DNA from: Pelagibacteraceae bacterium AG-464-B04
GTDB lineage: Bacteria > Pseudomonadota > Alphaproteobacteria > Pelagibacterales > Pelagibacteraceae
Length of the DNA stretch: 64,000 bases
Assembly: GCA_003209225.1 (NCBI GenBank)
Contig: QCRZ01000002.1
Coordinates: 4,864-68,863, forward strand
Direction of reading: 5' to 3'
In this document: positions 8,792 through 54,664 of the stretch, piece after piece
How positions within the stretch are numbered: the stretch's first letter is position 1
How the letters are laid out: the number at the start of each line of letters is the position of its first letter
The notes under the pieces: generated by a model
The model's database searches: none
Seen by the model: only the letters and a program-made list of their open reading frames with translations
What the model was told of the DNA's origin: nothing
Translations under genes and position numbers: made by a program

Positions 8792-9325
8792 CTAATAATT
8801 TTTTATAAAATATACTCTAGTATCTATACTAGTTTTAAAAAAACCTTTGGCTTCACCTGAAACTGTAATTGTATCACTCACTCCCTCTATGGCCCTTATC
8901 GTATATCCTGCAAAACATTTATTTAAAGAGCTGTCCCATTTTACAGAATATTTATCAATTTTATTTCCATTATCAAAATACAATTGCGTTGCACTGACGT
9001 TTACAATGTTTGCTCCCATTACTGAACGTTGGGTTACAATTTTAGTATTTTTGCACACCGCTTCATATTCGCTCAGTGATAATTGGTAACCCTCAGTACT
9101 TTCATAGAAATTTAATCTGCCTCTAGGAAGTGAAGTAATGACTTTATTAATCTCTTCAGTCTTCACGTTCTCTGCGATCTTGTCGCTCTCTTTAATCTCT
9201 CCAAAAAAAATGTTCAAAATGATAAATGTAAAAATTATTATTGCTGTTAAACCAACAAGGCCTACTATTTGTTTAATGCCTTCCGGAGCTTCTTTGTATT
9301 TTTTTAAATTATTTTCTAACAACAT
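8792..9325 (-). CDS. Hypothetical membrane-anchored periplasmic protein
   Basis: 177 aa with a single N-terminal TM helix (IVGLVGLTAIIIFTFIILNIFF). I recognise no family. It lies inside the repeat-flanked cassette. Confidence 0.55.
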   Translation of the reverse strand: MLLENNLKKYKEAPEGIKQIVGLVGLTAIIIFTFIILNIFFGEIKESDKIAENVKTEEINKVITSLPRGRLNFYESTEGYQLSLSEYEAVCKNTKIVTQRSVMGANIVNVSATQLYFDNGNKIDKYSVKWDSSLNKCFAGYTIRAIEGVSDTITVSGEAKGFFKTSIDTRVYFIKNY

Positions 9326-9333
9326 TGTTCTAT

Positions 9334-9726
9334 CTAATTCGGCTCAACTAATGCACCATCTTTCCAGGTGCCTTTTTTAACTGTTCCGTCTGCCATGGTA
9401 AAAGTTCCTTGTCCATTCATGAAACCATCACGCCACTCACCCATGTATGTGGCTCCATCTGGAAAAGTCAAAGTTCCTTGTCCATGCCATTTGCTTTCTT
9501 TAAATTCTCCCTTGTATATGTATCCATTTGGCCAAGTCACAATCCCTTGTCCATGCTTTTTACCAACACTCCACTCACCTACGTATGTGGTTTTGTCCGT
9601 ATAAGTCCAAGTCCCGAATCCGTCTTCACAGTTACCATCAGTACATCCAGTTGTACGTGCAAACCCTGTATTGCAAAGGATCAAACCTAAAAATATATAT
9701 AGAAACAGTTTTTTCATATTCGCCAC
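9334..9726 (-). CDS. Secreted MORN-repeat protein
   Basis: 130 aa with a signal peptide (LFLYIFLGLILCNTGFA). It has 3-4 MORN units: YVGEWSVGKKHGQG, YKGEFKESKWHGQG, YMGEWRDGFMNGQG. Confidence 0.7.
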   Translation of the reverse strand: MANMKKLFLYIFLGLILCNTGFARTTGCTDGNCEDGFGTWTYTDKTTYVGEWSVGKKHGQGIVTWPNGYIYKGEFKESKWHGQGTLTFPDGATYMGEWRDGFMNGQGTFTMADGTVKKGTWKDGALVEPN

Positions 9727-14792: not shown

Positions 14793-16265
14793 ATGACAGA
14801 TCTAGAAAAGCACGTTAACAGACCAGGGCGTGATAAAATTGTAAAAAAAGTTAGAGAAAAAATTAATGAACTAGGAATTACTTATATATATTTTCAATTT
14901 ATATCAGTAACAGGAAGAGTAGTGGGAAAAGGTATACCCGCTGATCACTGGGAAAGAATTGCAGAAAAAGGTTTCCAGTTAGTTTATGGAGCTACCGCAA
15001 ACTTATTTGTTGATCGTCATAAAAATTATATAGGTTATGGGCCAGAAGCAAAAGAATTAGTTGGAATACCAGATCCAGAAACTTTTGTTCAAGTGCCTTG
15101 GGATAAAAGAGTTGGAAGAGTTTATTGTACTTGTTTTAGAAATAGAGAAGAAAGAGATAATCCGGGTGGACATTTAACTTCTGATTGTAGAGGTAATTTA
15201 AGAATACATCACGAAGAATTTACAAAGAAACACAAAGGTTTGAAATTAAGAATTGGAACTGAACCAGAAATGATGTGGTTAACCAGAAATCAAGATGGTA
15301 CGCCAACTGGTAAAGGTTTTTCGAAACCATATTGTTATCACATTGACCAATTTGAATCCTTAAGGCCAGTATTTATGAAAGTGATTGAATACTCAAACGC
15401 AATGGGATTAGACATGATTCAAGGAGATCATGAGGATGCGCCTGGTCAATTAGAATTAAATTGGATGTTTGATGACGTATTAAGAAACGCAGATAGACTT
15501 TCAACATATAGACAAATTTGCGCACAAGTTGCTAGAGAACATGGAATAATTGCATGTTTCATGACAAAACCTTTTATGGGAGTTTCAGCCAGTGGATGTC
15601 ATACAAACATGTCACTATGGACAGGTGGAAATGATAAAGTGAATAAATTACATCATAAAACATTACCAGGAGTAGAAGAAGTTTTTACTTATGTTCAAGG
15701 TGGAAAAAACACATTTATGCCAGATACAAAAGATGTTCAGCTGCCAGGAAAAATTGGTTTAAAATGTATTGGTGGTGTTATGAAACACTTAGGTGCTTTA
15801 ACTGCTATTGGCTCATCAACTGTAAACTCGTATAGAAGATTATGGGATCAAGGTTTCTGGGCGCCAGTTTATGCAGACTGGGGTTATCAAAATAGAACTT
15901 GCGGATTAAGAGTTTCTGCTCCAGGAAGATTTGAATACCGTTCAGTTGACTCGATGCATAACCCTTATTTAATGGGCTCAGCATTATTAAAATCTTTTGA
16001 CGATGGCCTGACAAATAATATTGATCCAGGAAAACCTGAATCAAGAAACATCTACGAAGCTCAAAAAGCAGGTAAAGATGTTAAAAAATTACCATTAAGC
16101 CTTGGTGAAGCCTTGGATCGTTTAAAAGAAGATAAAGTTATTCAATCAGCTATGCCAGATGAAATGTATAAAATATTTCATTGGTACAAAAACGATGAAT
16201 GGGAAAAATTTTTAGGAGCAACAACTCAGTGGGATCTTGACACCTACCTGGATTGTTTACCTTAG
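14793..16265 (+). CDS. gmaS: Glutamine-synthetase-family ligase, probable gamma-glutamylmethylamide synthetase
   Basis: 490 aa. GS motifs YIYFQFISVTGRVVGKGIP (beta-grasp), HEDAPGQLELNW, KPFMGVSASGCHTNMSLW, NSYRRL, RFEYRSVDSMHNPYL. It sits immediately upstream of mgsABC. Strong GAGGGGGA Shine-Dalgarno. Confidence 0.7.
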   Translation: MTDLEKHVNRPGRDKIVKKVREKINELGITYIYFQFISVTGRVVGKGIPADHWERIAEKGFQLVYGATANLFVDRHKNYIGYGPEAKELVGIPDPETFVQVPWDKRVGRVYCTCFRNREERDNPGGHLTSDCRGNLRIHHEEFTKKHKGLKLRIGTEPEMMWLTRNQDGTPTGKGFSKPYCYHIDQFESLRPVFMKVIEYSNAMGLDMIQGDHEDAPGQLELNWMFDDVLRNADRLSTYRQICAQVAREHGIIACFMTKPFMGVSASGCHTNMSLWTGGNDKVNKLHHKTLPGVEEVFTYVQGGKNTFMPDTKDVQLPGKIGLKCIGGVMKHLGALTAIGSSTVNSYRRLWDQGFWAPVYADWGYQNRTCGLRVSAPGRFEYRSVDSMHNPYLMGSALLKSFDDGLTNNIDPGKPESRNIYEAQKAGKDVKKLPLSLGEALDRLKEDKVIQSAMPDEMYKIFHWYKNDEWEKFLGATTQWDLDTYLDCLP

Positions 16266-16285
16266 TTCGAAAGGAAATAATTATT

Positions 16286-17227
16286 ATGTGTGGAATAGCA
16301 GGATTAATTCATAAAGGAAAGACTGTAAATATAGGCAAGGAATTACAAGATATGTTGCAGGCCCTTAAACATAGAGGACCTGATTCTACAGGTTTTGCAC
16401 TCTACGGCGAGGGAAGTAAAGGGGATTATATTATGCGTTTTAAAGTAGGAGAAAACGTTAAAGAAGGAAGCTCAGCTGTAAACGAAGATAAATCAATCTA
16501 CGATATTAGAAAAAAACAAGTAGACAAACATTTAATAGATTTAGGTGCGGATATTTATCAAGAAGAACGTTTAACCCCTTATTCGTTTAGATATGTAATT
16601 AAATATGACAAAGATTTAATGGAGTTTTCAAAAAAAATTGAAAGTGTTGAGATGACCGAAATATTATCTCTTGGTAAAACCTTGGAGTTAGTTAAAGATA
16701 TTGGTGATGCCGAAGAAGTTTCGAAACAATATGGATTATATAAAGTAAAAGGGACTCATGCTATTGGCCACTCGAGAATGGCTACGGAATCAGGAGTAGA
16801 TATAAGATCTGCACATCCTTTTTGGGGCTATCCTTTTAGCGATGTTTCGGTAGTGCACAATGGACAATTAACTAATTATTGGAATAATAGAAGGACACTT
16901 GAAAATAAAGGAATGCGCTTTATGTCAGAGTGTGATTCAGAGCTTATTGCAGTTTACTTAGCTCAAAAAATGAGAAGTGGAGCATCATTGCGAGACGGAA
17001 TGAACGACTCTCTTAAGGAATTAGATGGAGTTTTTACATATTTGGTAGCGACAAAAGATTCTTTGGGTATGGCAAAAGATACAATGGCTGCTAAACCTTT
17101 AGTCCTATATGAATCAGATGATTTAGTAGCAATGGGTTCTGAAGAAATAGCTATTAGAACTTTACTGCCGCAAGAAATAGATACTTATGACCCTTATGAT
17201 GGAGAAGTAAAAGTATGGGAAATTTAA
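16286..17227 (+). CDS. mgsA: N-methylglutamate synthase subunit A (class-II glutamine amidotransferase domain, GlxB-like)
   Basis: MCGIAGL places the Ntn nucleophile Cys directly after the initiator Met. An AAGGA ribosome-binding site lies upstream of ATG 16286. Also HSRMATES and VVHNGQLTNY. Confidence 0.8.
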   Translation: MCGIAGLIHKGKTVNIGKELQDMLQALKHRGPDSTGFALYGEGSKGDYIMRFKVGENVKEGSSAVNEDKSIYDIRKKQVDKHLIDLGADIYQEERLTPYSFRYVIKYDKDLMEFSKKIESVEMTEILSLGKTLELVKDIGDAEEVSKQYGLYKVKGTHAIGHSRMATESGVDIRSAHPFWGYPFSDVSVVHNGQLTNYWNNRRTLENKGMRFMSECDSELIAVYLAQKMRSGASLRDGMNDSLKELDGVFTYLVATKDSLGMAKDTMAAKPLVLYESDDLVAMGSEEIAIRTLLPQEIDTYDPYDGEVKVWEI

Positions 17228-18057
17228 AAAATTCAAAATCACAATCTATGGGACTTCATAAAGAAGTTCTTACAGGAAGAACCCAGCAAGTCTTTTTCAA
17301 TCCAGAGGAAGCAGAAAATTTCTTTTATTATGGGGCTTATGATGTTGATTTTAATAAAAGAACAGAAATAGATGCAAAAAACTTAACTTGCGCAACACTT
17401 AACCACAAACTGCATGATTTGATGAAAGAAGGTTATGGAACGATTGCTGTTAAAAACCCTCAAGGGAAACATAGTTTGGGTGTAGGAATTTTAAATAAAT
17501 TAAACTTAATTTTTGAAGGTTCAATTGGATATTTTGGAGTAGGCTCCATTGATGGTCCTGTAGTTAGAATTACTGGAAGAGTTGGTTGGTCTTGTGCAGA
17601 AAATATGATGGCAGGAAAAGTTGTTATTGAAAAAAATGCAGGGTCTTGCTTCGGAGCTGCAATCCGAGGTGGAGATTTAATTTGTAAAGGGAGTGTTGGA
17701 GCAAGAACTGGAATTGATATGAAAGGTGGAACTATAATTGTAGGTGGTGATGCTGGAGCTTTTACAGGTTTTATGATGCAAAGAGGAAGAATAATTGTCC
17801 TAGGGGATGCAGGTATAAACTTAGGTGACTCTATGTATGATGGTACAATTTTTATTGGAGGAAAAATTAAATCTTATGGAAGCGATGCTGTAAAATCTAA
17901 AATCACATCAGATGATATAGCTTGGTTAAAAAGAAAACTTAAAGTAGCAGAAATAGGATCTGATTTTGATTTAAGTAAAATGACTAAAATAGTTGCTGGT
18001 AAAAAACTTTGGAATTATGATGCACTAGAACCATCTGAAAAAAAAGGAGCTATATAA
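17215..18057 (+). CDS. mgsB: N-methylglutamate synthase subunit B (GXGXG beta-helix domain, GlxC-like)
   Basis: 280 aa. Gly-rich repeats GSIGYFGVGSIDG and GSVGARTGIDMKGGTIIVGGDAGAFTGFMMQRGRIIVLGDAG, typical of the GltB C-terminal domain. The start overlaps the end of mgsA; an alternative ATG is at 17248. Confidence 0.75.
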   Translation: MGNLKNSKSQSMGLHKEVLTGRTQQVFFNPEEAENFFYYGAYDVDFNKRTEIDAKNLTCATLNHKLHDLMKEGYGTIAVKNPQGKHSLGVGILNKLNLIFEGSIGYFGVGSIDGPVVRITGRVGWSCAENMMAGKVVIEKNAGSCFGAAIRGGDLICKGSVGARTGIDMKGGTIIVGGDAGAFTGFMMQRGRIIVLGDAGINLGDSMYDGTIFIGGKIKSYGSDAVKSKITSDDIAWLKRKLKVAEIGSDFDLSKMTKIVAGKKLWNYDALEPSEKKGAI

Positions 18058-18058
18058 A

Positions 18059-19438
18059 ATGGCAAAAAAAAAGAAAAAATCTAAAAGTAAAACAAATGGT
18101 GTTTCTGAAGATAGAAACAAAAGTCTTTTAGGACAAAATTCAATTTTTACACCTGAAGTTATTGACGACATCCATATAAAAGCACAATTAGGTCGTTACA
18201 GAATGCGTGGTATGGCCTTGATGAAAAAGATACCAACATTTGATGATCTAGTATTTTTGCCAGGCACATTAACAAGATTTGTTATTGAGGGTTATAGAGA
18301 AAAATGTGAAACAAAAACAATTATTGGCCCACGTTGCAAAAACCCCATCGAATTAGATATTCCAGTTTACATTACTGGAATGAGTTTTGGTGCTCTTTCG
18401 TATGAAGCAAAAACTGCATTAGCTAGAGGAGCTACAATGGCTGGAAGTGCAACATGTTCTGGTGAAGGTGGAATGATTCCAGATGAAAGACGATATTCGG
18501 AAAAATGGTTTTATCAATGTATACAATCTCGATATGGTTTTAATCCACACCATGCCCAGCTAGCAGATGGTATAGAAGTTTTTATAGGTCAGGGACAAAA
18601 AGTTGGAATGGGTGGTCATTTAATGGGACAAAAAGTAACTGATCAAGTTGCTGAGATGAGATCGTTACCTTCTGGTATTGATCAACGTTCTCCAGCAAGA
18701 CACCCTGATTGGTTAGGTCCAGATGATCTAGCTTTAAAAGTTCAAGAATTAAGAGAACTCACAAACAACCAAGTTCCAATACAATTAAAATTAGGTGCTG
18801 CTAAAGTTTATGATGATGTTCGTATGGCAGCAAAATGCGACCCTGACTCAATTTATTTAGATGGAATGGAAGGATCTACTGGAGCAGGTCCTCACATTGC
18901 GGCGGCTAACACAGGCATTCCTGGAATAGCTGCAATCCGAGAGGCACGAAGAGCTTTAGATGACATTGGTCAATCTGGAAAAGTAACATTAATTTATGCT
19001 GGTGGTGTTAGAGATGGAGCTGACTTAGCAAAAGCTTTGGCATTAGGTGCAGATGCTGTTGCAATTGGAACTGGCTCTATGATTGCACTAAACTGTAATA
19101 AAGAAATTCCAGGAGTTAATTTTGAAAAAGAGATGGGAGTTAAAGCTGGGCATTGCTATCACTGTCATACGGGTCGTTGTCCAGTCGGAGTTGCAACACA
19201 AAATCCAAAACTTAGAAAAAGATTAAATCCAGATGATGCGGCATTAAGAGTTTATAATTATCTTCATTCAATGGCTTTAGAATTACAGCTATTAGCTAGA
19301 GCCTGTGGCAAGACCAATGTTCACTCTTTAGAACCAGAAGACCTAGCAGCTTTAACAATGGAAGCTTCTGCTTTGGCAAAAGTTCCACTAACTGGGACAA
19401 ACCATACTGTTGGAGTGGATGATTTCCATAAAATTTAA
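18059..19438 (+). CDS. mgsC: N-methylglutamate synthase subunit C (FMN-dependent glutamate-synthase central domain, GlxD-like)
   Basis: 459 aa. ITGMSFGALS, SGEGGM, DGMEGSTGAGP, IYAGGVRDGADLAKALALGADAVAIGT, and Cys cluster CYHCHTGRCPVG. Confidence 0.8.
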   Translation: MAKKKKKSKSKTNGVSEDRNKSLLGQNSIFTPEVIDDIHIKAQLGRYRMRGMALMKKIPTFDDLVFLPGTLTRFVIEGYREKCETKTIIGPRCKNPIELDIPVYITGMSFGALSYEAKTALARGATMAGSATCSGEGGMIPDERRYSEKWFYQCIQSRYGFNPHHAQLADGIEVFIGQGQKVGMGGHLMGQKVTDQVAEMRSLPSGIDQRSPARHPDWLGPDDLALKVQELRELTNNQVPIQLKLGAAKVYDDVRMAAKCDPDSIYLDGMEGSTGAGPHIAAANTGIPGIAAIREARRALDDIGQSGKVTLIYAGGVRDGADLAKALALGADAVAIGTGSMIALNCNKEIPGVNFEKEMGVKAGHCYHCHTGRCPVGVATQNPKLRKRLNPDDAALRVYNYLHSMALELQLLARACGKTNVHSLEPEDLAALTMEASALAKVPLTGTNHTVGVDDFHKI

Positions 19439-42700: not shown

Positions 42701-43996
42701 CTAATTTAAGCCTAAATTTGATCCTGTTAATCGACCAACTGACAATAGCAGTTTGTATTGGGATAAAAGAAAATCTCTTTGCGAATTGGCCAAACTTATT
42801 TTGGCATCAAGCAACATGGAATTTGATTGTATGACATCAAGTGTAGATCTTCCTGCGCCAGATTCGTATTCCTGAGTGATACCCTCATTAGCTATTTCAG
42901 CAGCTTTTACTTGAGATTTAATAGATATTAAAAAACTTTTTGAAGATTTAAAATTAGACCAAGCATTTGTTACTAATGCTTCGCTAGATTTTTTAGCATC
43001 CTCAAGTAATAATTCCTTTTGGTATTTTAATCTTTTTGATTTTTTTAAACTTGCGGTATTTTTACCTCCAGAAAATATTGGCCAAGAAGCTTCTGCCTTT
43101 AGTATTTCTTGATCTCTTTCATCAACTGTTGAACTCAAATCTTGACTTTCTTTTAACTCAAAGGAAAGTTTTGCACTTGGCATTAATTCTGACCTAGCTA
43201 TTATAATATCCTTTTTAGATTGTTCTAACTCTAAGATTGCAATGTTTAAATCTGGACTTTCTTTCTTTGAAATTTGATTTGCAACACCTAAGCTTCTAGG
43301 GAGTTTATAATTAAAAGTACTTAAGGAAAATAAATTTTTATAGTTATTTATACTTCCGATAGTCTTTTCATAATTCAGTTTACTGGTTATTAATTTATTT
43401 TCTGCATCAATCAATTTTGCTTTTGCTCCTGCTAGAGAAGCTTCTGATTGAGCCAAATCTGTTAAATTTATCTCTCCACGTTCTAACCTTCCCCTATTAG
43501 TTTCTACCTGCCTTTCAAATAAGTTTACATTTTCTTTGTTTATTTTAACTTTTTTATTGCTCAAAACTAGGTTGGTATATACCTCAATGGACTCAAATAA
43601 AATTTCTTGTTCGACTTTTTTAAGATTAAATTTTGCTAGTTCTAAACCGATATTATTTTTTTCCAAATTTGCATATCTCCCTTTACCCTCATAAAGACTT
43701 TGTTCAATTAAAATTTTTTGTTGACTAGGTTCAAAATTTGATTTTTTGGAACCTCCCGTTCTATCAGTTTGTTTTGTTGTATTTTCATCGCTTAGATAAC
43801 CGGAGATAGTTATCGTTGGTAAAAATTCACTTTTTGCTTCGTTTATACTTTCTTCAGAAATTTTTATATTTTCTCTCTCTGCATTCAATCTTGGATTGTT
43901 TCTATATGCTTCACCTAAAGCTTGTTTTAAACTTACGGCACTAGCTTTGTTAAAAAAAAATATACTAAAGAATAAAATTATAATTACTTTTTTCAT
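42701..43996 (-). CDS. tolC: TolC-family outer-membrane efflux protein
   Basis: 431 aa with a signal peptide. Two internally repeated OEP halves with typical coiled-coil-rich sequence (LKQALGEAYRNNPRLNAERENI...). Confidence 0.8.
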   Translation of the reverse strand: MKKVIIILFFSIFFFNKASAVSLKQALGEAYRNNPRLNAERENIKISEESINEAKSEFLPTITISGYLSDENTTKQTDRTGGSKKSNFEPSQQKILIEQSLYEGKGRYANLEKNNIGLELAKFNLKKVEQEILFESIEVYTNLVLSNKKVKINKENVNLFERQVETNRGRLERGEINLTDLAQSEASLAGAKAKLIDAENKLITSKLNYEKTIGSINNYKNLFSLSTFNYKLPRSLGVANQISKKESPDLNIAILELEQSKKDIIIARSELMPSAKLSFELKESQDLSSTVDERDQEILKAEASWPIFSGGKNTASLKKSKRLKYQKELLLEDAKKSSEALVTNAWSNFKSSKSFLISIKSQVKAAEIANEGITQEYESGAGRSTLDVIQSNSMLLDAKISLANSQRDFLLSQYKLLLSVGRLTGSNLGLN

Positions 43997-44919
43997 TAAT
44001 TTTTGAACCTAATTTTATTTATTTGATGTTTTTTGTTTAAAGTTAAAACAATTGATGCAACTTTTGGCATATCTTTAAGCATCTGTAAAGTTACTCTTTG
44101 ATAAAACATAATAAAACGCTTTATTTTATTATATGACATTATTTTATTTTTTGAGTAGCGCTTGTTATTCAGCTTATTTTCTTGAAGTAGCCTCCATTTA
44201 AAAACCATATTAAAGTTTGGAATTTTTATAAAGACAAAATTATCAATCATTGAAAAAAAATTTTTATAGTCTTCTCTAAGTTTTTTATTAACATATTTTC
44301 TCCATATTAAATCTTTATCTTCATTTTTTTCAAGAATATTGATTGGTTTTTTTAAGAGAGAATTTAATTGGGGCTTTGCTCCTACGCACCAACCTTCTAA
44401 TATTACTATTTCAGGTCTTTTTTTAATATTGGTCCAATGCTTCGCTTTTAAACGATCGTCTATTAATTTGTTAAACTTAGGTGATTTAAATTTTTTAAAT
44501 TTTTTTTTTTTTATAAAAGCATAAAATTTTTTAATTAAATTCACATCATGTGTACCAGGAACTCCTCTTGTCAAAAACAAAGGATGGATTTTATGTGACA
44601 TTTTATTACGGTCTTCCAATGTTTTGTAAAAATCGTCAATAGAACTTACATATATTTCTCTTTTAAAATAATCTTTTAAAATAATCTCTAAAATTCCTGA
44701 AATTGTAGTTTTTCCAGAACCTTGCCCTCCTGAAAAACCTATAAATAAAGTTTTTCCCTTTTTTCTATATTTATTATCTATCCAAAACGACATGGGTATA
44801 TAAATTTTTTTTAAGCTCTTTATTTTTTCTGCTTTAGAATTTCCTAAAATCTTTTCTTTATTTAGAAATTTAAAATAGTCTTCTTTTACGTTATCAAAAC
44901 ACTCATTAACTGATCGCAT
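43996..44919 (-). CDS. P-loop kinase of the D-glycerate 3-kinase (GLYK) / uridine-kinase-like family
   Basis: 307 aa. FIGFSGGQGSGKTT (P-loop), SIDDFYKT, LTRGVPGTHD, VILEGWCVG. The stop overlaps the tolC start (TAATG). Confidence 0.6.
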   Translation of the reverse strand: MRSVNECFDNVKEDYFKFLNKEKILGNSKAEKIKSLKKIYIPMSFWIDNKYRKKGKTLFIGFSGGQGSGKTTISGILEIILKDYFKREIYVSSIDDFYKTLEDRNKMSHKIHPLFLTRGVPGTHDVNLIKKFYAFIKKKKFKKFKSPKFNKLIDDRLKAKHWTNIKKRPEIVILEGWCVGAKPQLNSLLKKPINILEKNEDKDLIWRKYVNKKLREDYKNFFSMIDNFVFIKIPNFNMVFKWRLLQENKLNNKRYSKNKIMSYNKIKRFIMFYQRVTLQMLKDMPKVASIVLTLNKKHQINKIRFKN

Positions 44920-45473: not shown

Positions 45474-45869
45474 ATGAATTTACTATTACCATTTTATTTG
45501 CATAAAGCGGGAGCAGGTTTTCCATCGCCAGCTACTGATTATGTAGAAGAAGATATAGATCTTAATATTCATTTAATTAAAAACACACCTGCTACTTTCG
45601 TTATAAGGGTACAGGGTAAGTCTATGTCGGACGTTGGAATTTGTGATGGGGATATTTTAATAGTTGATAAAAGCCTAAAACCAAAAAATTTTTCAACAGT
45701 AATTGCAAACATAAATGGTGATCTTGTTGTAAAAAATTTTGTAAAAGAAAAAAATTTAAAATTTCTTTCTTCGGGATCTAAAAATTTTAATGACAGGATT
45801 GTTATAAATGAAAATTCAGATATTTTTATTTGGGGGGTTGTAACTTATGTCATCCATTCAACATACTAA
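45474..45869 (+). CDS. umuD: Translesion polymerase V accessory protein UmuD (S24 peptidase)
   Basis: 131 aa. [23 protein letters not shown] (Ser nucleophile), GDILIVD, LVVKNF (Lys). Confidence 0.85.
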
Positions 45870-47127
45870 AAAAATAGCATTGGTCGATTGTAATTCATTT
45901 TATGTCTCTTGTGAAAGGTTATTTAAACCATCACTAAATAAAAAACCTGTTATAGTTTTATCTAATAATGATGGTTGTATAATTTCAAGATCTATTGAGG
46001 CAAAAGCTCTTGGAATAAAAATGGGTGATCCATATTTTAAAGCCAAAAATATAATTTTAAAAAATAAAGTTCATGTATTTTCTTCCAATTACGCATTGTA
46101 TGGGGACATGTCCAGAAGAGTTATGAGAACTTTAAAATATTTTACACAAGAAATAGAAATTTATTCTATAGATGAAGCTTTCTTGGATTTAACAAATTTT
46201 CCTGATGATTTAGTAGAGCTTTTTGGAAAAAAAATTAGAAGCACAATATTAGAATGGACAGGTATTCCAACCAGCATAGGTATAGCAACAACTAAAACTT
46301 TAAGTAAGATAGCAAATCATGTTGCAAAGAAAGAGAAGTCTGGGGTTGTAAGTTTAATAAATATTAAAAATATCGATTCAATATTAGAGAAAATAGAAAT
46401 TAACGATGTATGGGGTGTTGGAAAACAATTAACCAAATTTTATATTAGAAATAATATTAGCAATGCAAAACAATTAAAGAATATATCAAATACATGGATA
46501 AAAAAAAGTTCTAATGTTTTAAGCTCTAGGACGGCAATGGAGTTAAGAGGTATATCTTGTATTTCTTTAGAAAAAAGTCAATCAAAAAGAAAAAGTTGCT
46601 GTGTATCAAGATCGTTTGGAAAAAAAGTAGAAAATTATCAAGAGTTAAAAGAATCTGTGACCGCACATTGCTTAAATGCTGCAGAAAAAATAAGATCTGA
46701 ATCTTTGTTTGCAAAATCAATAACTGTCTACATAAGAACAAGTCCTTTTCAAAATAAAGGAATATACTATTCAAATTCTAAAACTATGGATTTTCCAATT
46801 GCTACTGACAATAGTTTTGAAATAGTAAAAAATGCTTTAGCTGGTTTAGAATTTATTTTTAAAGATGGGTATAGATATCAAAAATCAGGAATAATTTTAT
46901 CAGGACTATCTGATTCTGAAAAAAACCAAAATTTATTTTTTAATAAAAAAAATAACAAAATTAAAAACCTAATGAAATCTATTGATTTAACAAATCACAG
47001 ATATGGTCGTTCAACTTTAAGCTTAGCGGATGCTGGTATAAGTAAAAAGCGGAATACAAGAAAACAATATTCTTCAAAAATTGATACTGCTGATTTTTAT
47101 CTTTTGCCAAGAGTAAGGGCTATTTAA
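45847..47127 (+). CDS. umuC: Y-family DNA polymerase V catalytic subunit UmuC
   Basis: 426 aa. [36 protein letters not shown]. Overlaps the end of umuD. Confidence 0.9.
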
Positions 47128-49848: not shown

Positions 49849-50475
49849 TTTTACTATAGGAACTTTTTCACCAGAATTTAGACAATCGTATCCCTTTATT
49901 ACACCTGGTCTTTCAGAAACAAGTTGATACCATCTACTCAGATGTTGAAATTTTTTTAATCCTACATCATGCCATTCGTGTCTGGCGATCCAAGGAAAGG
50001 TTGCTATATCAGCTATTGAATAATCATCTCCTGCTAAAAAATTTGATGTTGATAAATGTTGATCTAAATCTTTATAAATTCTTTTTGCTATATTAAAATA
50101 TCTTTCTTCACCAAATTTACTTTTTCCAGGATTGTAATGATGAAACTGATGATGTTGTCCAAGCATGGGTCCAATATCACCCATTTGGGCCATTAACCAT
50201 TGATTAATTAGATTTTTATTTTTGACTTCATAAAATTTTCCACTTAATTCAGCTAAATAAATTAAAATAGCGCCCGATTGACTTAAACTAATTTTATTTT
50301 TGTGGTCTATTATTGCGGGTATTTTGCTTAAAGGGCTTATTTTTCTAAAATCTGAATTATATTGATCACCCTTTGAAAGATTTATTTCAGTTATTTTATA
50401 ATCAAATTTTATTTCTTCCAGCATAATAGATATTTTTCTTCCGTTAGGAGTGTTGGCATAAAATAACTCAATCAC
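49843..50475 (-). CDS. Nu-class glutathione S-transferase (YfcG-like)
   Basis: IELFYANTPNGRKISIMLEEIKFDYKITEINLSKGDQYNSDFRKISPLSKIPAIIDH parallels YfcG. I prefer the GTG start at 50475 (GGGAG ribosome-binding site, overlaps the upstream TGA) over the track's ATG at 50544, which would overlap the upstream gene by 77 nt. Confidence 0.8.
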   Translation of the reverse strand: MIELFYANTPNGRKISIMLEEIKFDYKITEINLSKGDQYNSDFRKISPLSKIPAIIDHKNKISLSQSGAILIYLAELSGKFYEVKNKNLINQWLMAQMGDIGPMLGQHHQFHHYNPGKSKFGEERYFNIAKRIYKDLDQHLSTSNFLAGDDYSIADIATFPWIARHEWHDVGLKKFQHLSRWYQLVSERPGVIKGYDCLNSGEKVPIVKL

Positions 50476-51490
50476 CTTTTTTGACTCCCAATCTTTCCTG
50501 TATACTTTTTGAAGTTGTTGTATATTCAAATCTGTATGCCACATTTGGTTTCGCTATTTTAAAACAGGCTCTTGCTGCAAGTGCACCCTCATGAAAGCCA
50601 GATAAAATTAATTTAAGTTTACCTGGATATGTACATATATCGCCTATTGCAAAAATTCCCTCTTTATTTGTCTGAAAATTTTCTGTATTTACCGGTATTG
50701 TTTTTTTTTCTAAATTCAAACCCCATTCAGCAATTGGACCAAGTTTCATTATTAATCCAAAAAAACCAAGCACACAGTCAGTTTTAATTTTTTCAATTTT
50801 TCCATCTTCGTTTTTTATAGTTATTGCGTTTACTTTTTTTTCACCTTCGATTGAATTTATTTGGAAAGGAGTTTTTATTTTTAATTTGCCTTCTTTTTCA
50901 AGTTTTTTCACAATTTCCGCACTATGTTCGGCCCCTCTAAATTCGTTTCTCCTATGTACTAATATTACGTCAGAAATTTTTGATAATTCAATAGCCCAAT
51001 CTAAAGCTGAGTCTCCTCCTCCAAATATACAGACTTTTTTATTTTTAAAATCATTTTTATTTTTGACTGAATAAAAAACACCATTATTTTCAAATTTTTC
51101 TACATTTTTGACAAAAAATTTTCTTGGTTCAAAAGATCCAACGCCACCTGCAATTATAATATTTGGGGTTATAAAAATTTTCTTCTTGCTTGTCTCGACT
51201 TTCCATTCATTTTTATTTTGTGAAACTGCCTCAACTCTTTCATTTAAATGAAAGTTTGGTTTAAAAGGTTTAATTTGTTCTAATAAATTTTTTGTTAAAC
51301 CTTCTCCAGTGCACTCAGGTATAGCGGGAATATCATAAATTGGTTTGTCAGGATAAAGCTCTATACACTGTCCACCAATTTTATCCAAATTGTCAATTAT
51401 TTCTGCTTTGAGGCCAATTATGCCCAGCTGGTGTACAACAAACAAACCAACTGGCCCGGCACCAACTACCACTGCATCTGTTTTAATCAT
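50468..51490 (-). CDS. Ferredoxin--NADP+ reductase, thioredoxin-reductase-like type
   Basis: 340 aa. DAVVVGAGPVGLF (FAD), VCIFGGGDSALDWA (NADPH), IFAIGDI. Lacks the TrxR CxxC. Confidence 0.75.
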   Translation of the reverse strand: MIKTDAVVVGAGPVGLFVVHQLGIIGLKAEIIDNLDKIGGQCIELYPDKPIYDIPAIPECTGEGLTKNLLEQIKPFKPNFHLNERVEAVSQNKNEWKVETSKKKIFITPNIIIAGGVGSFEPRKFFVKNVEKFENNGVFYSVKNKNDFKNKKVCIFGGGDSALDWAIELSKISDVILVHRRNEFRGAEHSAEIVKKLEKEGKLKIKTPFQINSIEGEKKVNAITIKNEDGKIEKIKTDCVLGFFGLIMKLGPIAEWGLNLEKKTIPVNTENFQTNKEGIFAIGDICTYPGKLKLILSGFHEGALAARACFKIAKPNVAYRFEYTTTSKSIQERLGVKKGD

Positions 51491-51497
51491 ATTTTAA

Positions 51498-51821
51498 TTA
51501 TGCTTGTTTTAGTGGCAAATTTACGACCATACCATCTAAATCGTCATTAACCACAATTTGGCATGATAGCCTACTAAGCTTGTTTGGTTCATAAGCCATA
51601 TCAAGCATATCTTGTTCTGCGGACTCTATTTTTGAAATTTTGTTAAAAAAATTTTCATCAATATAAACATGACATGTCGCACATGCACAGGCTCCACCAC
51701 ATTCAGCATCAACTCCTGGAATAGCGTTTTGCACTGCACCATCCATAATTGTCATACCATTTGGAACTTCGATAACGTGTTTTTTTTTATTTAAAAACTC
51801 TATATAGGTAATTTTTGCCAT
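51498..51821 (-). CDS. fdx: [2Fe-2S] ferredoxin, adrenodoxin/putidaredoxin type
   Basis: 107 aa. AECGGACACATCHVYI...LSCQI cluster ligands. Confidence 0.9.
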   Translation of the reverse strand: MAKITYIEFLNKKKHVIEVPNGMTIMDGAVQNAIPGVDAECGGACACATCHVYIDENFFNKISKIESAEQDMLDMAYEPNKLSRLSCQIVVNDDLDGMVVNLPLKQA

Positions 51822-51883: not shown

Positions 51884-52627
51884 TCATTTTGCTAGAACCC
51901 AAATGGTTATACCAAAAGCAATTTTATTAACGAAATCTGCAAAATTATAAATTATACTTAAAGAACTTGAGTCTAACCCTCCTGTTAAGTATCCAAAAAC
52001 ATAACCCAAAGGATATACTGCCCAACCAATTGTTACGATCATCCTTAGTATTGAGAATGTTGCAATCAAGTCTTCGTTATTTGATTTATAAACAATTTTT
52101 CCAGCCTCGCCTGAAAATATTTCATAGAGAATAAAAATCCATCCACTCATCCAAATGACGAATCCTATGAATGGCAAAATATATCCTGTTTCACCAGCAT
52201 ACCCCCCCATAACCATAATCAAAGCACCTATCAAAAGCTTCCAAAAGATTGTTGTAGGAACTTTTTTAATTGCAGTTAAAATTAAATAAAATTGTATAGC
52301 TAACAACGGCATAGTTATTAACCATTCTATATATTTATAAACTGTTGGAATATCACCTGTCGAAAGCCATAAATTTCTTAAATACAAAGAATGTACGAAT
52401 GTTATACCTGTAATAATACCAGCAACTGTAATTGATGTTCTCCATCCCTGAACAACTGCGCCACGTTCTAAAAAAAAGAAAGCAGTAGCTGCTAGACTGC
52501 CCATTGATATAAACCAAAAAGAAAAACCTACAAAATCATCTGGTCTGAGCATTGTCTCTGCGAAAGCATTACTTGATGTACCAATCAATATTGGTAAAAT
52601 TAATAAAATTCTTTTTAAATTACTCAT
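51884..52627 (-). CDS. Proteorhodopsin-family microbial rhodopsin with non-canonical K/E/T/Q residues at the R94/D97/T101/E108 positions
   Basis: 247 aa with a signal peptide and 7 TM helices. The retinal Lys is in YNFADFVNKIAFG. Helix F reads IGWAVYPLGY. Helix C reads TVYKYIEWLITMPLLAIQFY versus the canonical TVFRYIDWLLTVPLLICEFY. Confidence 0.9.
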   Translation of the reverse strand: MSNLKRILLILPILIGTSSNAFAETMLRPDDFVGFSFWFISMGSLAATAFFFLERGAVVQGWRTSITVAGIITGITFVHSLYLRNLWLSTGDIPTVYKYIEWLITMPLLAIQFYLILTAIKKVPTTIFWKLLIGALIMVMGGYAGETGYILPFIGFVIWMSGWIFILYEIFSGEAGKIVYKSNNEDLIATFSILRMIVTIGWAVYPLGYVFGYLTGGLDSSSLSIIYNFADFVNKIAFGITIWVLAK

Positions 52628-52768: not shown

Positions 52769-54664
52769 ATGAATCAAAAATATTTTGATATATATAATGA
52801 ATCAATTGAAAATCCTGAACTTTTTTGGAAAAAAGTATCTAAAAATATTTACTGGTATAAAGAACCTTCAAAAATTCTTAATAAGTTAAACCCACCATTT
52901 TATAGATGGTTTGAAGATGGCATTACAAACACATGTTATAATGCTTTGGATGTTCATATTAAAAATGGACTAGGTAATAAAATAGCGTTAATTTATGATA
53001 GCCCCATAACAGGGGAGAAAAAAAAATTTACATATTTAGATTTAAAAAATTTGGTAGCAATTTTCGCTGGCGCACTAAAGAATCAAGGTGTCAATAAAGG
53101 TGATCGTGTAATTATATATATGCCAATGATACCGGAAGCAGTTATTGCTATGTTGGCCTGTGGAAGGATTGGAGCAATTCATTCTGTTGTTTTTGGTGGT
53201 TTTGCTGCAAACGAACTGGCAAGTAGAATTGATGACTCAAAAGCAAAAATTATTGTTAGTGCATCTTGTGGTTTTGAACCTGGTAGAACAGTTGAATATA
53301 AACCTCTATTAGATAAAGCCATGAATATTTCAAAACACAAACCCAAAAAAATAATTTTTTTTCAAAGGAAAAAACATGAAGTAAAATTAAAATCTCCAAA
53401 TGAAATAAGCTGGGAAGATGCAAATACAAATGCCTCTCCAGTTGATTGTGTAGAGATGAAAGCTTCTGACTATGCATATATTTTATACACTTCAGGAACA
53501 ACAGGAACTCCCAAAGGAATTGTAAGAGATATAGGTGGACATATCGTTGCTCTAAAATGGACAATGAAAAATATATACAATGTCGATGAAAATGATGTTT
53601 GGTGGTCTGCAAGTGATATTGGTTGGATTGTCGGTCATTCTTACATAGTTTACGCACCATTATTTCATGGATGCACAACAGTATTATTTGAAGGAAAACC
53701 TGTAGGAACTCCAGATGCTGGGGTTTTTTGGAGAATTATTTCAGAACATAAAGTTAAATCTCTTTTCACAGCACCTACAGCTTTTAGGGCAATAAAAAAA
53801 GAAGATCCTGAAGGAAAATTTTTTTCAAAATACAATTTAGATTCTTTCAAATCTTTATTTTTAGCTGGAGAAAGAGCTGATCCAGATACTCTTAAATGGG
53901 CAGAATCTCTTCTTAAAGTTCCTGTAATTGACCATTGGTGGCAAACAGAAACTAGTTGGGCTATCAGCGCAAATTGTATGGGCATAGAACAACAAAAAAC
54001 CAAATATGGCTCCGCATGTAAAGCTGTACCTGGATATAACGTAAAAGTAATGAAAAGTGATAAAACAGAAGCTAAACCCAATGAGATGGGAGACATAGTT
54101 GTTAAACTTCCTTTGCCTCCAGGTACATTTCCAACTTTATGGAACGCTGATGAAAGATATAAGGAAAATTATATGAGCAATTATCCCGGGTACTATCAAA
54201 CATATGATGCGGGACATATAGATGATGATGGTTATCTTTGGATCATGTCTAGAACTGATGACATAATTAACACTGCAGGACATAGGTTATCAACAGGCGC
54301 AATAGAAGAAGTTCTTTCTGAACATAAGGCAGTTGCCGAATGTGCAGTCATTGGTATTGCTGACTCTTTGAAGGGGCAAGTTCCTATAGGTCTCTTAACT
54401 TTAAAAGCTGGAGTCAAAACTGGTAATGAAGAAATTTCAAAAGAATGCATCAAGATGGTAAGAGAAAAAGTAGGCCCTGTAGCAGCATTTAAAATAGCAA
54501 TAGTTGTAAAGAGACTTCCCAAGACAAGATCGGGCAAAATATTAAGAGGAACGGTTAGAAAAATCGCTGATAATGAACCTTATAAAATGCCTGCAACTAT
54601 TGACGATCCTGCAATTTTATCAGAAATTAAGGAAGATCTAAAGAAACATCAAATTTTAAAATAA
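52769..54664 (+). CDS. prpE: Propionate--CoA ligase (acyl/acetyl-CoA synthetase family)
   Basis: 631 aa. N-terminal PELFWKK...WF.DG..N.C.NALD pattern, AMP-binding motif YTSGTTGTPKG, and C-terminal PKTRSGKILR. Confidence 0.7.
   Translation: MNQKYFDIYNESIENPELFWKKVSKNIYWYKEPSKILNKLNPPFYRWFEDGITNTCYNALDVHIKNGLGNKIALIYDSPITGEKKKFTYLDLKNLVAIFAGALKNQGVNKGDRVIIYMPMIPEAVIAMLACGRIGAIHSVVFGGFAANELASRIDDSKAKIIVSASCGFEPGRTVEYKPLLDKAMNISKHKPKKIIFFQRKKHEVKLKSPNEISWEDANTNASPVDCVEMKASDYAYILYTSGTTGTPKGIVRDIGGHIVALKWTMKNIYNVDENDVWWSASDIGWIVGHSYIVYAPLFHGCTTVLFEGKPVGTPDAGVFWRIISEHKVKSLFTAPTAFRAIKKEDPEGKFFSKYNLDSFKSLFLAGERADPDTLKWAESLLKVPVIDHWWQTETSWAISANCMGIEQQKTKYGSACKAVPGYNVKVMKSDKTEAKPNEMGDIVVKLPLPPGTFPTLWNADERYKENYMSNYPGYYQTYDAGHIDDDGYLWIMSRTDDIINTAGHRLSTGAIEEVLSEHKAVAECAVIGIADSLKGQVPIGLLTLKAGVKTGNEEISKECIKMVREKVGPVAAFKIAIVVKRLPKTRSGKILRGTVRKIADNEPYKMPATIDDPAILSEIKEDLKKHQILK

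What the first reader, a model, noticed from the sequence alone, without database searches (positions are those of the whole stretch)
51884..52627. Proteorhodopsin homologue in which the conserved R94, the proton acceptor D97 and the proton donor E108 are all replaced (R94K, D97E, E108Q: a 'KETQ' rhodopsin)
**What the sequence shows.**
- Helix C reads GDIPTVYKYIEWLITMPLLAIQFYLIL.
- It aligns without gaps to green proteorhodopsin GDSPTVFRYIDWLLTVPLLICEFYLIL, which I quote from memory.
- That alignment puts Lys at the near-universal Arg94 and Glu at the Schiff-base counterion / proton acceptor Asp97.
- Thr101 and the green-tuning Leu105 are retained, and Gln sits at the cytoplasmic proton donor Glu108.
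- Everything needed to bind retinal is intact: Lys231 and Asp227 in ADFVNK, His75 in FVHS, and the W/Y/P of helix F in GWAVYPLGY. The ORF also has a signal peptide and no frame disruption.
- This therefore looks like a functional pigment, not a decaying gene.

**Why it is unusual.**
- Canonical proton-pumping PRs carry the DTE motif.
- Gln at the donor position is what Na+/Cl- pumps (NDQ/NTQ) and slow-cycling variants carry.
- Glu as counterion is typical of channelrhodopsins and heliorhodopsins.
- I know of no described ETQ-motif clade with a Lys in place of Arg94.

**Interpretation (inference).** Changing all three residues at once suggests altered ion specificity, an altered counterion pKa, or a slow, sensory-like photocycle, in a lineage usually assumed to carry a plain proton pump.
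Basis: partly seen in the sequence, partly recalled or inferred. Interest (0 to 1): 0.85.

Follow-up and report, generated by a model that had tools for sequence, protein, structure and literature searches.

The report
Deep-water SAR11 proteorhodopsin with K/E/Q substitutions
This is the normal SAR11 proteorhodopsin gene, in its usual place, from a deep-water lineage that has replaced three residues needed for fast light-driven proton pumping; selection keeps the gene, but what it now does, and whether it still binds retinal, is unknown.

Summary
ORF 51884-52627 (-) encodes a 247-aa proteorhodopsin-family opsin. Gapless alignment to solved proteorhodopsins puts Lys at R94, Glu at D97 and Gln at E108. 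It is not an error or a decaying gene: about 40 distinct metagenomic relatives carry the same K/E/T/L/Q set, K and E persist through synonymous codon changes, and dN/dS is 0.11-0.21. The gene sits in the canonical SAR11 proteorhodopsin slot, so it is the orthologue of the pump, not an extra paralogue.

It belongs to a deep-water (500-770 m) SAR11 sub-family. In that sub-family these three sites toggle repeatedly (RDE, RDQ, KDQ, KEQ), and K94 never occurs with E108. They are invariant in 81 canonical proteorhodopsins.

G155 aligns with bacteriorhodopsin S141, a beta-ionone ring contact. Two tested members of the sub-family gave no activity in E. coli, so "retinal binding intact" is not secure.

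Most likely it is a donor-less, slow-cycling retinal protein. A retinal-free opsin is the main rival. A change of ion specificity is unlikely. DTQ and one ETQ sequence were already tabulated in 2018; K94 is undescribed.

The parts
51884..52627 (-). Opsin gene (247 aa), proteorhodopsin family. It is the positional orthologue of the SAR11 proteorhodopsin.
52556..52627 (-). Predicted Sec signal peptide (residues 1-24, MSNLKRILLILPILIGTSSNAFA|E). It is retained, unlike in FArhodopsins.
   Evidence: Read from the sequence. AF2 places a helix at 3-22 with low pLDDT. The FAR N-terminal deletion is described.
52391..52393 (-). His79 (GPR H75), the proteorhodopsin-specific partner of the counterion. 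Conserved.
   Evidence: 145/146 in the sub-family
52334..52336 (-). Lys98 (AAA) at the position of GPR R94 / BR R82.
   Evidence: (AAA or AAG in relatives)
52325..52327 (-). Glu101 (GAA) at the position of GPR D97 / BR D85, the Schiff-base counterion and proton acceptor.
   Evidence: (GAA or GAG in relatives)
52310..52315 (-). Thr105 (GPR T101, retained) and Met106 (GPR V102 / BR T90). Position 102 is where FArhodopsins carry the His or Phe that blocks the polyene chain.
52301..52303 (-). Leu109 (GPR L105), the spectral-tuning site. It is Leu in 145/146 sub-family members.
52292..52294 (-). Gln112 (CAA) at the position of GPR E108 / BR D96, the cytoplasmic proton donor.
52151..52153 (-). Trp159 (TGG) at the position of GPR G155 / BR S141, a beta-ionone ring contact. 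This is the signature of the deep sub-family.
   Evidence: FAR parallel.
51923..51937 (-). Asp231...Asn234-Lys235 (GPR D227, N230, K231): second counterion and Schiff-base lysine. Invariant.
51498..51821 (-). 2Fe-2S ferredoxin immediately downstream. Conserved neighbour of SAR11 proteorhodopsin.
50468..51490 (-). Pyridine-nucleotide-disulphide-type flavoprotein reductase (ferredoxin-NADP reductase-like). Conserved neighbour.
52769..54664 (+). Divergently transcribed acetyl/acyl-CoA synthetase. Conserved upstream neighbour.

Best explanation
**Identity (shown).** This is the vertically inherited orthologue of the SAR11 proteorhodopsin, in a distinct, mainly mesopelagic SAR11 lineage. It belongs to a sub-family defined by M102 and W155 (GPR numbering).

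**Evolution (shown).** Within that sub-family, strict constraint on the proton-transfer residues has gone.
- The cytoplasmic donor Glu108 was lost to Gln many times.
- Only on that donor-less background was the extracellular counterion complex remodelled conservatively (Arg94 to Lys, Asp97 to Glu).
- In the lineage of this window the K/E/Q state is fixed and is kept by selection.

**Mechanism (inferred).**
- The protein still binds a retinal chromophore at Lys235.
- Glu101 and Asp231 act as the counterion pair, and Glu101 is the proton acceptor.
- Lys98 stands in for the arginine of the extracellular half-channel.
- With no internal donor, the Schiff base is reprotonated slowly from the cytoplasm. 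The photocycle should therefore last about seconds, with a long-lived M-like state.
- That makes it a low-turnover outward proton pump, or effectively a slow photoreceptor. Either suits a habitat where photons arrive far more slowly than the cycle turns over.
- It is not a fast energy-harvesting pump and not a Na+/Cl- pump.
For: **Identity**
- Family and fold.
- Residue equivalence.
- Orthology: canonical RDTQE/RDTLE SAR11 proteorhodopsins, including cultured HIMB058, show the same gene order: acyl-CoA synthetase (divergent), opsin, Fer2, reductase. All KETQ contigs show it too.
- Coherent lineage: flanking reductase and synthetase are 86-89% and 82-92% identical among KETQ contigs, against 62-74% and 75-83% for other SAR11.

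**Selection**
- dN/dS is 0.11-0.21, against a median of 0.13 for canonical proteorhodopsins at equal divergence.
- K and E persist through AAA/AAG and GAA/GAG.
- Thirteen retinal-contact residues, including K231, D227, W98, W197, Y200 and P201, are essentially invariant in 146 sub-family members. Pocket entropy is 0.08, against 0.61 for all columns.
- Retinal-less FArhodopsins, by contrast, lost M134, G138, W197 and P201.

**Order of change**
- The state counts are RDE 43, RDQ 27, KDQ 29, KEQ 40. There is no K94 with E108.
- Parsimony gives a minimum of 11, 8 and 14 changes at sites 94, 97 and 108. There are none in 81 canonical sequences.

**Photocycle expectation**
- GPR E108Q prolongs M from milliseconds to seconds and gives faint steady-state pumping.
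- A donor-less FAR double mutant accumulates an M-like state and is almost bistable.
- A natural SAR11 DTQ-Q protein from 770 m, with M102 and Q108, pumps H+ outward.

**Habitat**
- A partial ORF in the Station ALOHA catalogue from 500 m carries the same KYIEW...Q helix C, and KYIDW...Q sequences come from 500 and 770 m.
- DTQ-L transcripts were detected at 500-1000 m.
Against: - W159 (GPR G155 = BR S141) and M106 (GPR V102 = BR T90) enlarge two retinal-contact side chains. The same two columns are implicated in retinal exclusion in FArhodopsins.
- The two tested proteins with M102+W155 gave no detectable activity in E. coli: DTQ-L (69% identical) and DTE-L2 (67% identical). DTE-L2 has a fully canonical R/D/T/L/E set. 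[quoted passage not shown]
- blh and crtY decline sharply below 200 m.
- Leu105 (green tuning) is invariant, although deep light is blue.
- The opsin evolves about twice as fast relative to its neighbour gene as canonical proteorhodopsins do. Opsin identity is 76-81%, against a median of 91%, at equal reductase identity. That indicates partial relaxation or a change of function.
- From my memory of the BR mutant literature, D85E and R82K both raise the counterion pKa. That could leave Glu101 protonated and the pigment inactive at seawater pH.
- No chromophore, spectrum or transport has been measured for any K94/E97 protein.
Confidence: 0.45

Rival explanations
1. A retinal-free opsin, or one that binds retinal only poorly. 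In the whole M102/W155 sub-family the chromophore site would be narrowed by Trp at the BR-S141 position and Met at the BR-T90 position, as in flotillin-associated rhodopsins. The protein would then serve a light-independent role, structural or regulatory, in the membrane. K94/E97/Q108 would re-tune an internal salt-bridge and hydrogen-bond network around an unliganded Lys235.
For: - Column equivalence: PsFAR H84 = GPR 102 and PsFAR G137 = GPR 155. Trp at the latter 'likely occupies the space of the beta-ionone ring' in HIMB59 FARs.
- Both tested W155 proteins, including DTE-L2 with a canonical motif, gave no activity. The G155 DTQ-Q protein from the same depth pumped.
- Proton-transfer residues lost strict constraint exactly in this sub-family.
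- The opsin evolves faster here.
- It lives in deep water, and blh is scarce there.
- Hays and Fuchsman 2025 argue that deep SAR11 rhodopsins are unlikely to harvest light.
- In PsFAR the free lysine is held by S54, D79 and D209, so acidic residues stay useful without retinal.
Against: - Thirteen other retinal contacts and the lysine are invariant across 146 diverged sequences. Genuine retinal-less FARs replaced five of them.
- M102 alone is compatible with pumping, as DTQ-Q shows.
- Neighbouring residues shrink together with G155W (L135V, M/L140A, W149F), which could make room for the indole away from the ring.
- W155 also occurs with a canonical R-D-T-V-Q-E helix C in another lineage, P0218.
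- 'ND' in E. coli may reflect poor expression or folding (the authors' own caveat).
- The signal peptide is retained and there is no flotillin partner.
Confidence: 0.3
2. A dedicated photosensor with a long-lived signalling state, sensing residual downwelling light or bioluminescence, rather than any kind of pump.
For: - Being donor-less predicts a slow photocycle, which is the hallmark of sensory rhodopsins.
- Light at this depth is energetically useless but still detectable.
- Transcripts of DTQ-L types were found at 500-1000 m.
- The pocket is strictly conserved while pump residues are relaxed.
Against: - There is no transducer, kinase or regulator gene next to it. The neighbours are the same housekeeping genes as for the pump.
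- SAR11 genomes are non-motile with minimal signalling (general knowledge).
- Leu105 is not blue-tuned.
Confidence: 0.15
3. A change of ion specificity (Na+, Cl- or inward H+), suggested by Gln at the donor site as in NDQ/NTQ pumps.
For: Gln at position 108 is shared with NDQ/NTQ pumps (introduction of Olson et al.).
Against: - Position 97 is Glu (acidic), not Asn.
- Overall similarity to Cl-/Na+ pumps is remote (E about 1e-5 to 1e-6, against 1e-69 for proteorhodopsins).
- The DTQ-Q relative is an outward H+ pump.
- The sub-family grades continuously into canonical RDTLE proteins.
Confidence: 0.04
4. A sequencing or assembly error, or a gene decaying in the dark.
For: The opsin evolves faster than in canonical SAR11. 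Many deep SAR11 have lost proteorhodopsin.
Against: - About 40 independent sequences from many samples carry the same motif.
- The ORFs are intact and dN/dS is 0.11-0.21.
- K and E are kept through synonymous changes.
- The retinal pocket is invariant.
Confidence: 0.02

Closest known systems
Canonical SAR11 / green and blue proteorhodopsins (GPR eBAC31A08, BPR HOT75, Med12; PDB 7B03, 4KLY, 4JQ6)
   Same: Same family, fold and genomic slot. It is 45% identical to GPR and 64-69% to canonical SAR11 proteorhodopsins. H75, T101, D227, N230, K231, W98, W197, Y200 and P201 are retained, as is the signal peptide. Phe sits at the carotenoid-fenestration position, as in canonical SAR11 proteorhodopsins.
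   Different: R94K, D97E and E108Q, plus the sub-family changes V102M, G155W, L135V, M/L140A and W149F. The three proton-transfer residues are invariant in the 81 canonical sequences examined.
Deep-water SAR11 'DTQ-L', 'DTQ-Q' and 'DTE-L2' rhodopsins of Olson et al. 2018 (Station ALOHA, 500-770 m)
   Same: DTQ-L and DTE-L2 belong to the same M102/W155/L105 sub-family (69% and 67% identical). DTQ types share Gln108. A partial KYIEW...Q sequence from 500 m and one 'ETQ' count are in that paper's supplement.
   Different: Those proteins keep R94 and D97. DTQ-Q, the only one shown to pump, has G155 and Q105. No K94/E97 protein was tested, and position 94 was not discussed.
Flotillin-associated rhodopsins (FArhodopsins; PsFAR, PDB 9R21)
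   Same: Proteorhodopsin-derived paralogues in SAR11 and relatives, enriched at depth. They retain the lysine but lack the donor, and they carry enlarged residues at columns 102 and (in the HIMB59 type) 155.
   Different: FARs have His or Phe at 102 and DTT/DTL/DNI motifs. They have no leader peptide, have lost M134, G138, W197 and P201, and sit next to a flotillin gene. The window protein is only 40% identical to a DTT-T deep-SAR11 (FAR-type) sequence, and it sits in the proteorhodopsin slot.
Laboratory mutants GPR E108Q, BR D96N, BR D85E and BR R82K
   Same: Each substitution seen here has a laboratory counterpart. E108Q gives M decay of seconds and weak pumping. From memory, BR D85E and R82K remain photoactive, with a raised counterion pKa and altered proton release.
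   Different: Here all three occur together, naturally, fixed under purifying selection, and on a modified pocket (M102/W155). The combined phenotype has not been measured.
NDQ (Na+) and NTQ (Cl-) pump rhodopsins
   Same: Gln at the donor position.
   Different: Those pumps have Asn at position 97 and are a distant clade (E about 1e-5). This protein keeps an acidic counterion.

Membership tests
Microbial (type-1) rhodopsin / Pfam PF01036 | Seven-TM opsin fold with a significant profile match | tested here: met
   Pfam E=4.6e-35. AF2 shows seven TM helices with pTM 0.80. Foldseek gives TM 0.91-0.93 to proteorhodopsin structures.
Microbial (type-1) rhodopsin / Pfam PF01036 | Schiff-base lysine in helix G | tested here: met
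   K235 = GPR K231, invariant in all 227 relatives.
Microbial (type-1) rhodopsin / Pfam PF01036 | Covalently bound retinal chromophore | not testable with these tools
   Thirteen pocket residues are conserved, but V102M and G155W alter the pocket. Two tested sub-family members gave no activity in E. coli.
Proteorhodopsin (light-driven outward H+ pump clade) | Closest sequence and structure similarity to characterised proteorhodopsins, including the PR-specific His75 | tested here: met
   E=1e-69 to BPR and 6e-62 to GPR. H79 is present.
Proteorhodopsin (light-driven outward H+ pump clade) | D97/T101/E108 (DTE) acceptor and donor motif | tested here: not met
   The motif is E/T/Q.
Proteorhodopsin (light-driven outward H+ pump clade) | Conserved Arg94 (BR R82) | tested here: not met
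   The residue is Lys98. R is found in 110 of 113 diverse family representatives and K in 2.
Proteorhodopsin (light-driven outward H+ pump clade) | Light-driven, CCCP-sensitive outward proton transport | not testable with these tools
   Proxy data only. DTQ-Q pumps; DTQ-L and DTE-L2 gave ND.
SAR11 proteorhodopsin orthologue group | Conserved locus: divergent acyl-CoA synthetase, then opsin, 2Fe-2S ferredoxin and flavoprotein reductase | tested here: met
   The same order and spacing occur in the window, in 10 KETQ contigs, and in most canonical Pelagibacteraceae loci, including HIMB058.
Deep-water SAR11 DTQ variants (Olson et al. 2018) | SAR11 affiliation, Gln108, recovered from 500-1000 m | tested here: met
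   Q112 is present. A catalogue ORF from 500 m carries the same KYIEW...Q helix C.
Deep-water SAR11 DTQ variants (Olson et al. 2018) | Asp at position 97 | tested here: not met
   The residue is Glu101.
FArhodopsin | Adjacent, co-transcribed flotillin gene | tested here: not met
   There is no flotillin or Band-7 gene anywhere in the 64-kb window. The neighbours are ferredoxin and acyl-CoA synthetase.
FArhodopsin | Aromatic His or Phe at GPR position 102; DTT/DTL/DNI motif; no leader peptide | tested here: not met
   Position 102 is Met106, the motif is ETQ, and a leader peptide is present.
NDQ/NTQ ion pumps | Asn at position 97, with Asp or Thr at 101 and Gln at 108 | tested here: not met
   Position 97 is Glu. 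Only Q108 matches. Similarity is E about 1e-5 to 1e-6.
Sensory rhodopsins | A cognate transducer encoded nearby or fused | tested here: not met
   No transducer, HAMP, MCP or kinase domains were found in the window.

The most novel reading that the evidence does not exclude
The K94/E97/Q108 opsin, on its remodelled M102/W155 pocket, may be a functionally new proteorhodopsin-derived photoreceptor of the dark ocean. It would be a chromophore-binding, nearly bistable or very slow-cycling protein with which an abundant mesopelagic SAR11 lineage senses residual daylight or bioluminescence rather than harvesting energy. One variant of this reading is that the narrowed ring pocket binds a chromophore other than ordinary all-trans retinal. 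The natural series RDE, RDQ, KDQ, KEQ would then record, step by step, how a pump became a sensor.
Probability: 0.15. Interest if true: 0.8.

Novelty: new variant of a known kind. Interest (0 to 1): 0.55.

Why it matters
SAR11 dominates the ocean interior, and why streamlined deep-water cells keep a rhodopsin gene in near-darkness is an open question. This gene shows three things:

- The canonical proteorhodopsin locus itself, not only the FArhodopsin paralogue, has been repurposed in a deep lineage.
- The residues for fast proton pumping were released from constraint in a definite order, with the donor lost first.
- One end-state (Lys/Glu/Gln) is fixed and kept by selection.

For rhodopsin biophysics, Lys at the Arg82 position is rare: 2 of the 113 diverse family representatives examined here. 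It occurs together with a Glu counterion and no donor. The natural intermediates could be expressed side by side. For ecology, models that count every SAR11 rhodopsin gene as a proton pump would overestimate phototrophy at depth.

Tried and rejected
- **GTDB species-representative scan.** None of the 80 best loci carries K94, E97 and Q108 together. Only L040 (RETQV) belongs to the M102/W155 sub-family.
- **Metagenome scan with the KETQ alignment.** I fetched DNA by exact protein look-ups instead.
- **G155W as closure of the carotenoid-antenna fenestration (XR Gly156).** Rejected. With validated BR and GR sequences, three alignment modes place the fenestration residue at GPR F152 / window F156, and G155 at BR S141.
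- **FArhodopsin membership.** Rejected on motif, leader peptide, pocket residues and gene context.
- **Second opsin, flotillin, or crt/blh genes in the window.** None found.
- **NCBIfam.** No hit.
- **Rfam and promoter/terminator scans around the gene.** Nothing informative.
- **Co-variation inside the sub-family.** Apart from the K94-Q108 dependency it mostly tracks phylogeny and was not interpreted.
- **The AF2 model.** It confirms the fold, but the tools do not expose coordinates, so I could not inspect the orientation of W159 relative to the retinal site.
Full report
**1.
- The window has an intact 247-aa ORF at 51884..52627 on the minus strand.
- It matches Pfam Bac_rhodopsin (E=4.6e-35). 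Its best solved relatives are blue and green proteorhodopsins (E=6e-69 to 6e-62).
- HMMER aligns helix C without gaps to BPR HOT75, Med12 and PsPR.
- On that numbering the window protein has K98=R94, E101=D97, T105=T101, L109=L105, Q112=E108, H79=H75, D231=D227 and K235=K231. Helix F reads W202/Y205/P206.
- An AlphaFold2 model built on 109 relatives is confident (pLDDT 83.5, pTM 0.80) and shows a leader helix plus seven TM helices. It superposes on GPR 7B03 with TM 0.93 and rmsd 1.3 A.

**2. It is neither an error nor a dying gene.**
- Among the 120 best database hits plus cluster members, the states at positions 94/97/101/105/108 are RDTLE, RDTLQ, KDTLQ and KETLQ, with a few others. About 40 distinct sequences are KETLQ.
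- DNA for ten KETQ contigs from different samples shows intact ORFs.
- Nei-Gojobori dN/dS is 0.11-0.21, with synonymous sites saturated between lineages. Lys is encoded by AAA or AAG and Glu by GAA or GAG.
- Canonical SAR11 proteorhodopsins give a median dN/dS of 0.13 at the same divergence.

**3. It is the SAR11 proteorhodopsin orthologue.**
- The window, every KETQ contig, a KDTQ single-cell genome (GCA_003211695.1) and most canonical RDTQE/RDTLE Pelagibacteraceae loci share one arrangement. These loci include cultured HIMB058.
- That arrangement is a divergent acyl-CoA synthetase, then the opsin, a 2Fe-2S ferredoxin and a flavoprotein reductase, at the same spacing.
- The window holds only one opsin. 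It has no flotillin and no crt/blh genes. Otherwise it is an ordinary SAR11-type chromosomal fragment of 31% G+C.
- Flanking genes of KETQ contigs are much closer to the window's than those of other SAR11: reductase 86-89% against 62-74%, synthetase 82-92% against 75-83%. The allele therefore marks a coherent, vertically evolving lineage.

**4. It belongs to a known deep-water group, but this state is undescribed.**
- Olson et al. 2018 catalogued Station ALOHA rhodopsins by the 97/101/108 motif. DTQ has 69 sequences and ETQ has one.
- Their FASTA holds a partial KYIEW...Q ORF from 500 m, and KYIDW...Q ORFs from 500 and 770 m.
- DTQ-L and DTQ-Q transcripts were found at 500-1000 m.
- The paper never mentions position 94.
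- I found no literature on an ETQ motif or on later functional work.
- Across 113 diverse 50%-identity family representatives, position 94 is Arg in 110 and Lys in 2. Position 97 is Asp in 107 and Glu in 3.
- It is not a FArhodopsin. Those carry DTT/DTL/DNI motifs, lack a leader peptide, sit beside flotillin, and have lost several pocket residues.

**5.
- All 146 sequences of this sub-family, including members with a fully canonical R/D/T/L/E set, carry V102M and G155W. They also carry L135V, M/L140A and W149F. All 81 canonical sequences have V102 and G155.
- I first suspected that G155W closes the carotenoid-antenna fenestration (XR Gly156). With BR and Gloeobacter rhodopsin sequences validated against the PDB, three MAFFT strategies agree on a different answer:
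  - BR W138 = GR G178 = Kin4B8 G153 = GPR F152 = window F156.
  - BR S141 = GPR G155 = window W159.
  - BR T90 = GPR V102 = window M106.
- S141 and T90 are retinal contacts in BR (established structural knowledge).
- The PsFAR study shows that His at the column-102 position is the main block to retinal. It also states that in HIMB59-type FARs a Trp at the PsFAR-G137 position 'likely occupies the space of the beta-ionone ring'. By a constant +18 offset, that position is GPR 155.
- Heterologous tests by Olson et al. point the same way:

| Tested protein | Residue 102 | Residue 155 | Identity to window | Result |
|---|---|---|---|---|
| DTQ-L | M | W | 69% | ND |
| DTE-L2 | M | W | 67% | ND |
| DTQ-Q | M | G | 62% | H+ pump |

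- So 'everything needed to bind retinal is intact' is not secure.

**6. Evidence that a chromophore is still bound.**
- Thirteen other retinal contacts are essentially invariant across the 146 diverged sub-family sequences: Y95, W98, T101, M134, G138, W159, W197, Y200, P201, Y204, D227, N230 and K231.
- Mean pocket entropy is 0.080, against 0.611 for all columns. In canonical SAR11 the figures are 0.076 and 0.391.
- A retinal-less FAR has replaced M134, G138, W197, P201 and V102.
- The residues that shrink together with G155W could make room for the indole away from the ring (inference).
- W155 also occurs with a canonical helix C in another lineage.

**7. How the three substitutions arose.**
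- Inside the sub-family, sites 94, 97 and 108 each carry about 1 bit of entropy. They are invariant in canonical proteorhodopsins.
- On a neighbour-joining tree built without those columns, parsimony needs at least 11, 8 and 14 changes. Recombination may contribute to this pattern.
- The observed combinations are RDE 43, RDQ 27, KDQ 29, KEQ 40, REQ 3 and single oddities.
- K94 is never found with E108 (69 of 69 K94 sequences have Q108), and E97 almost never is.
- The order is therefore donor loss first, then conservative remodelling of the counterion complex.
- The window lies in the main KEQ clade of 33 leaves. Bootstrap support for that exact set is only 40%, so clade limits are soft.
- Relative to the adjacent reductase gene, KETQ opsins diverge about twice as fast as canonical ones. 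Opsin identity is 76-81%, against a median of 91%, at 84-90% reductase identity. Constraint outside the pocket is thus partly relaxed or redirected.

**8. Mechanism.**
- *Shown:* identity, orthology, selection, the order of substitutions, and the pocket changes.
- *From the literature:*
  - GPR E108Q slows M decay from milliseconds to seconds and leaves faint steady-state pumping.
  - A donor-less retinal-binding FAR mutant is nearly bistable.
  - A natural SAR11 DTQ-Q protein still pumps H+.
- *Inferred:* if it is pigmented, this protein uses Glu101 and Asp231 as the counterion pair. It has Lys98 in the extracellular half-channel and reprotonates slowly. At 500 m photon arrival, not turnover, limits flux, so losing the donor costs nothing.
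- My estimates are:

| Reading | Confidence |
|---|---|
| Slow-cycling retinal protein (weak pump or photoreceptor) | about 0.45 |
| Dedicated sensor | about 0.15 |
| Retinal-free opsin | about 0.30 |
| Changed ion specificity | about 0.04 |
| Error or decay | about 0.02 |

**9. Verdict.**
- This is a new variant of a known kind. It is a previously uncharacterised K94/E97/Q108 end-state within the deep-water SAR11 proteorhodopsin sub-family.
- It is of moderate-to-good interest, because it offers a natural stepwise series for testing what rhodopsins do in the dark ocean.

Noticed in passing
window 52160-52162 (Phe156); loci L001-L046: The carotenoid-antenna 'fenestration' position (XR Gly156 / BR W138) is Phe in this protein and in essentially all SAR11 proteorhodopsins examined. 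By that criterion none of them should accept a xanthophyll antenna.
   Followed up: partly
L040 (CACFWQ010000027.1, SAG AG-414-N18), opsin near 4473-5213: This is the only genome in the GTDB species-representative scan that belongs to the M102/W155 sub-family. It carries R94/E97/T101/Q105/V108 and Leu at the fenestration site. It is an 'ETV-Q' type, which Olson et al. found inactive in E. coli.
   Followed up: partly
protein P0196 (50%-identity representative, 230 aa): This is the only other cluster with Lys at position 94. It has D97/T101/I102/V105/Q108 but lacks both D227 (Ser) and the Schiff-base lysine (Gln), so it is a lysine-less opsin.
   Followed up: no
L016, L030, L031, L034 (canonical RDTQE SAR11 loci): In these genomes the ferredoxin gene starts about 1.1 kb further downstream of the opsin than usual (about +1645 instead of about +560 from helix C). 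Something appears to be inserted between the proteorhodopsin and ferredoxin genes.
   Followed up: no
window 14793-19438 (+): A cluster of a glutamine-synthetase-like gene, a GATase, a GXGXG protein and a glutamate-synthase-domain protein. This is the layout expected for gamma-glutamylmethylamide / N-methylglutamate (methylamine) metabolism. It lies near glycine-betaine and amide/urea-type ABC transporters, a formamidase, Amt and a second glutamine synthetase (9814-30265).
   Followed up: no
window 10858-13200 (+): A 780-aa protein fuses a DUF1989 domain to a complete aminomethyltransferase (GCV_T + GCV_T_C). An FAD oxidoreductase (DAO) follows it.
   Followed up: no
window 45474-47127 (+): A umuD-like (Peptidase_S24) and umuC-like (IMS, IMS_C, DUF4113) translesion polymerase pair. 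The same pair is conserved at this position in the KDTQ SAG L082 and the KETQ contig L081.
   Followed up: no
window 9334-9726 (-), 8792-9325 (-) and 43996-44919 (-): A small MORN-repeat protein, and two ORFs (177 aa and 307 aa) with no Pfam match, sit among transporter and outer-membrane genes.
   Followed up: no
window 52481-52493 (-): A terminator-like hairpin followed by a T-run lies inside the opsin coding region, in the helix A codons. It is most likely a chance match in AT-rich DNA.
   Followed up: no
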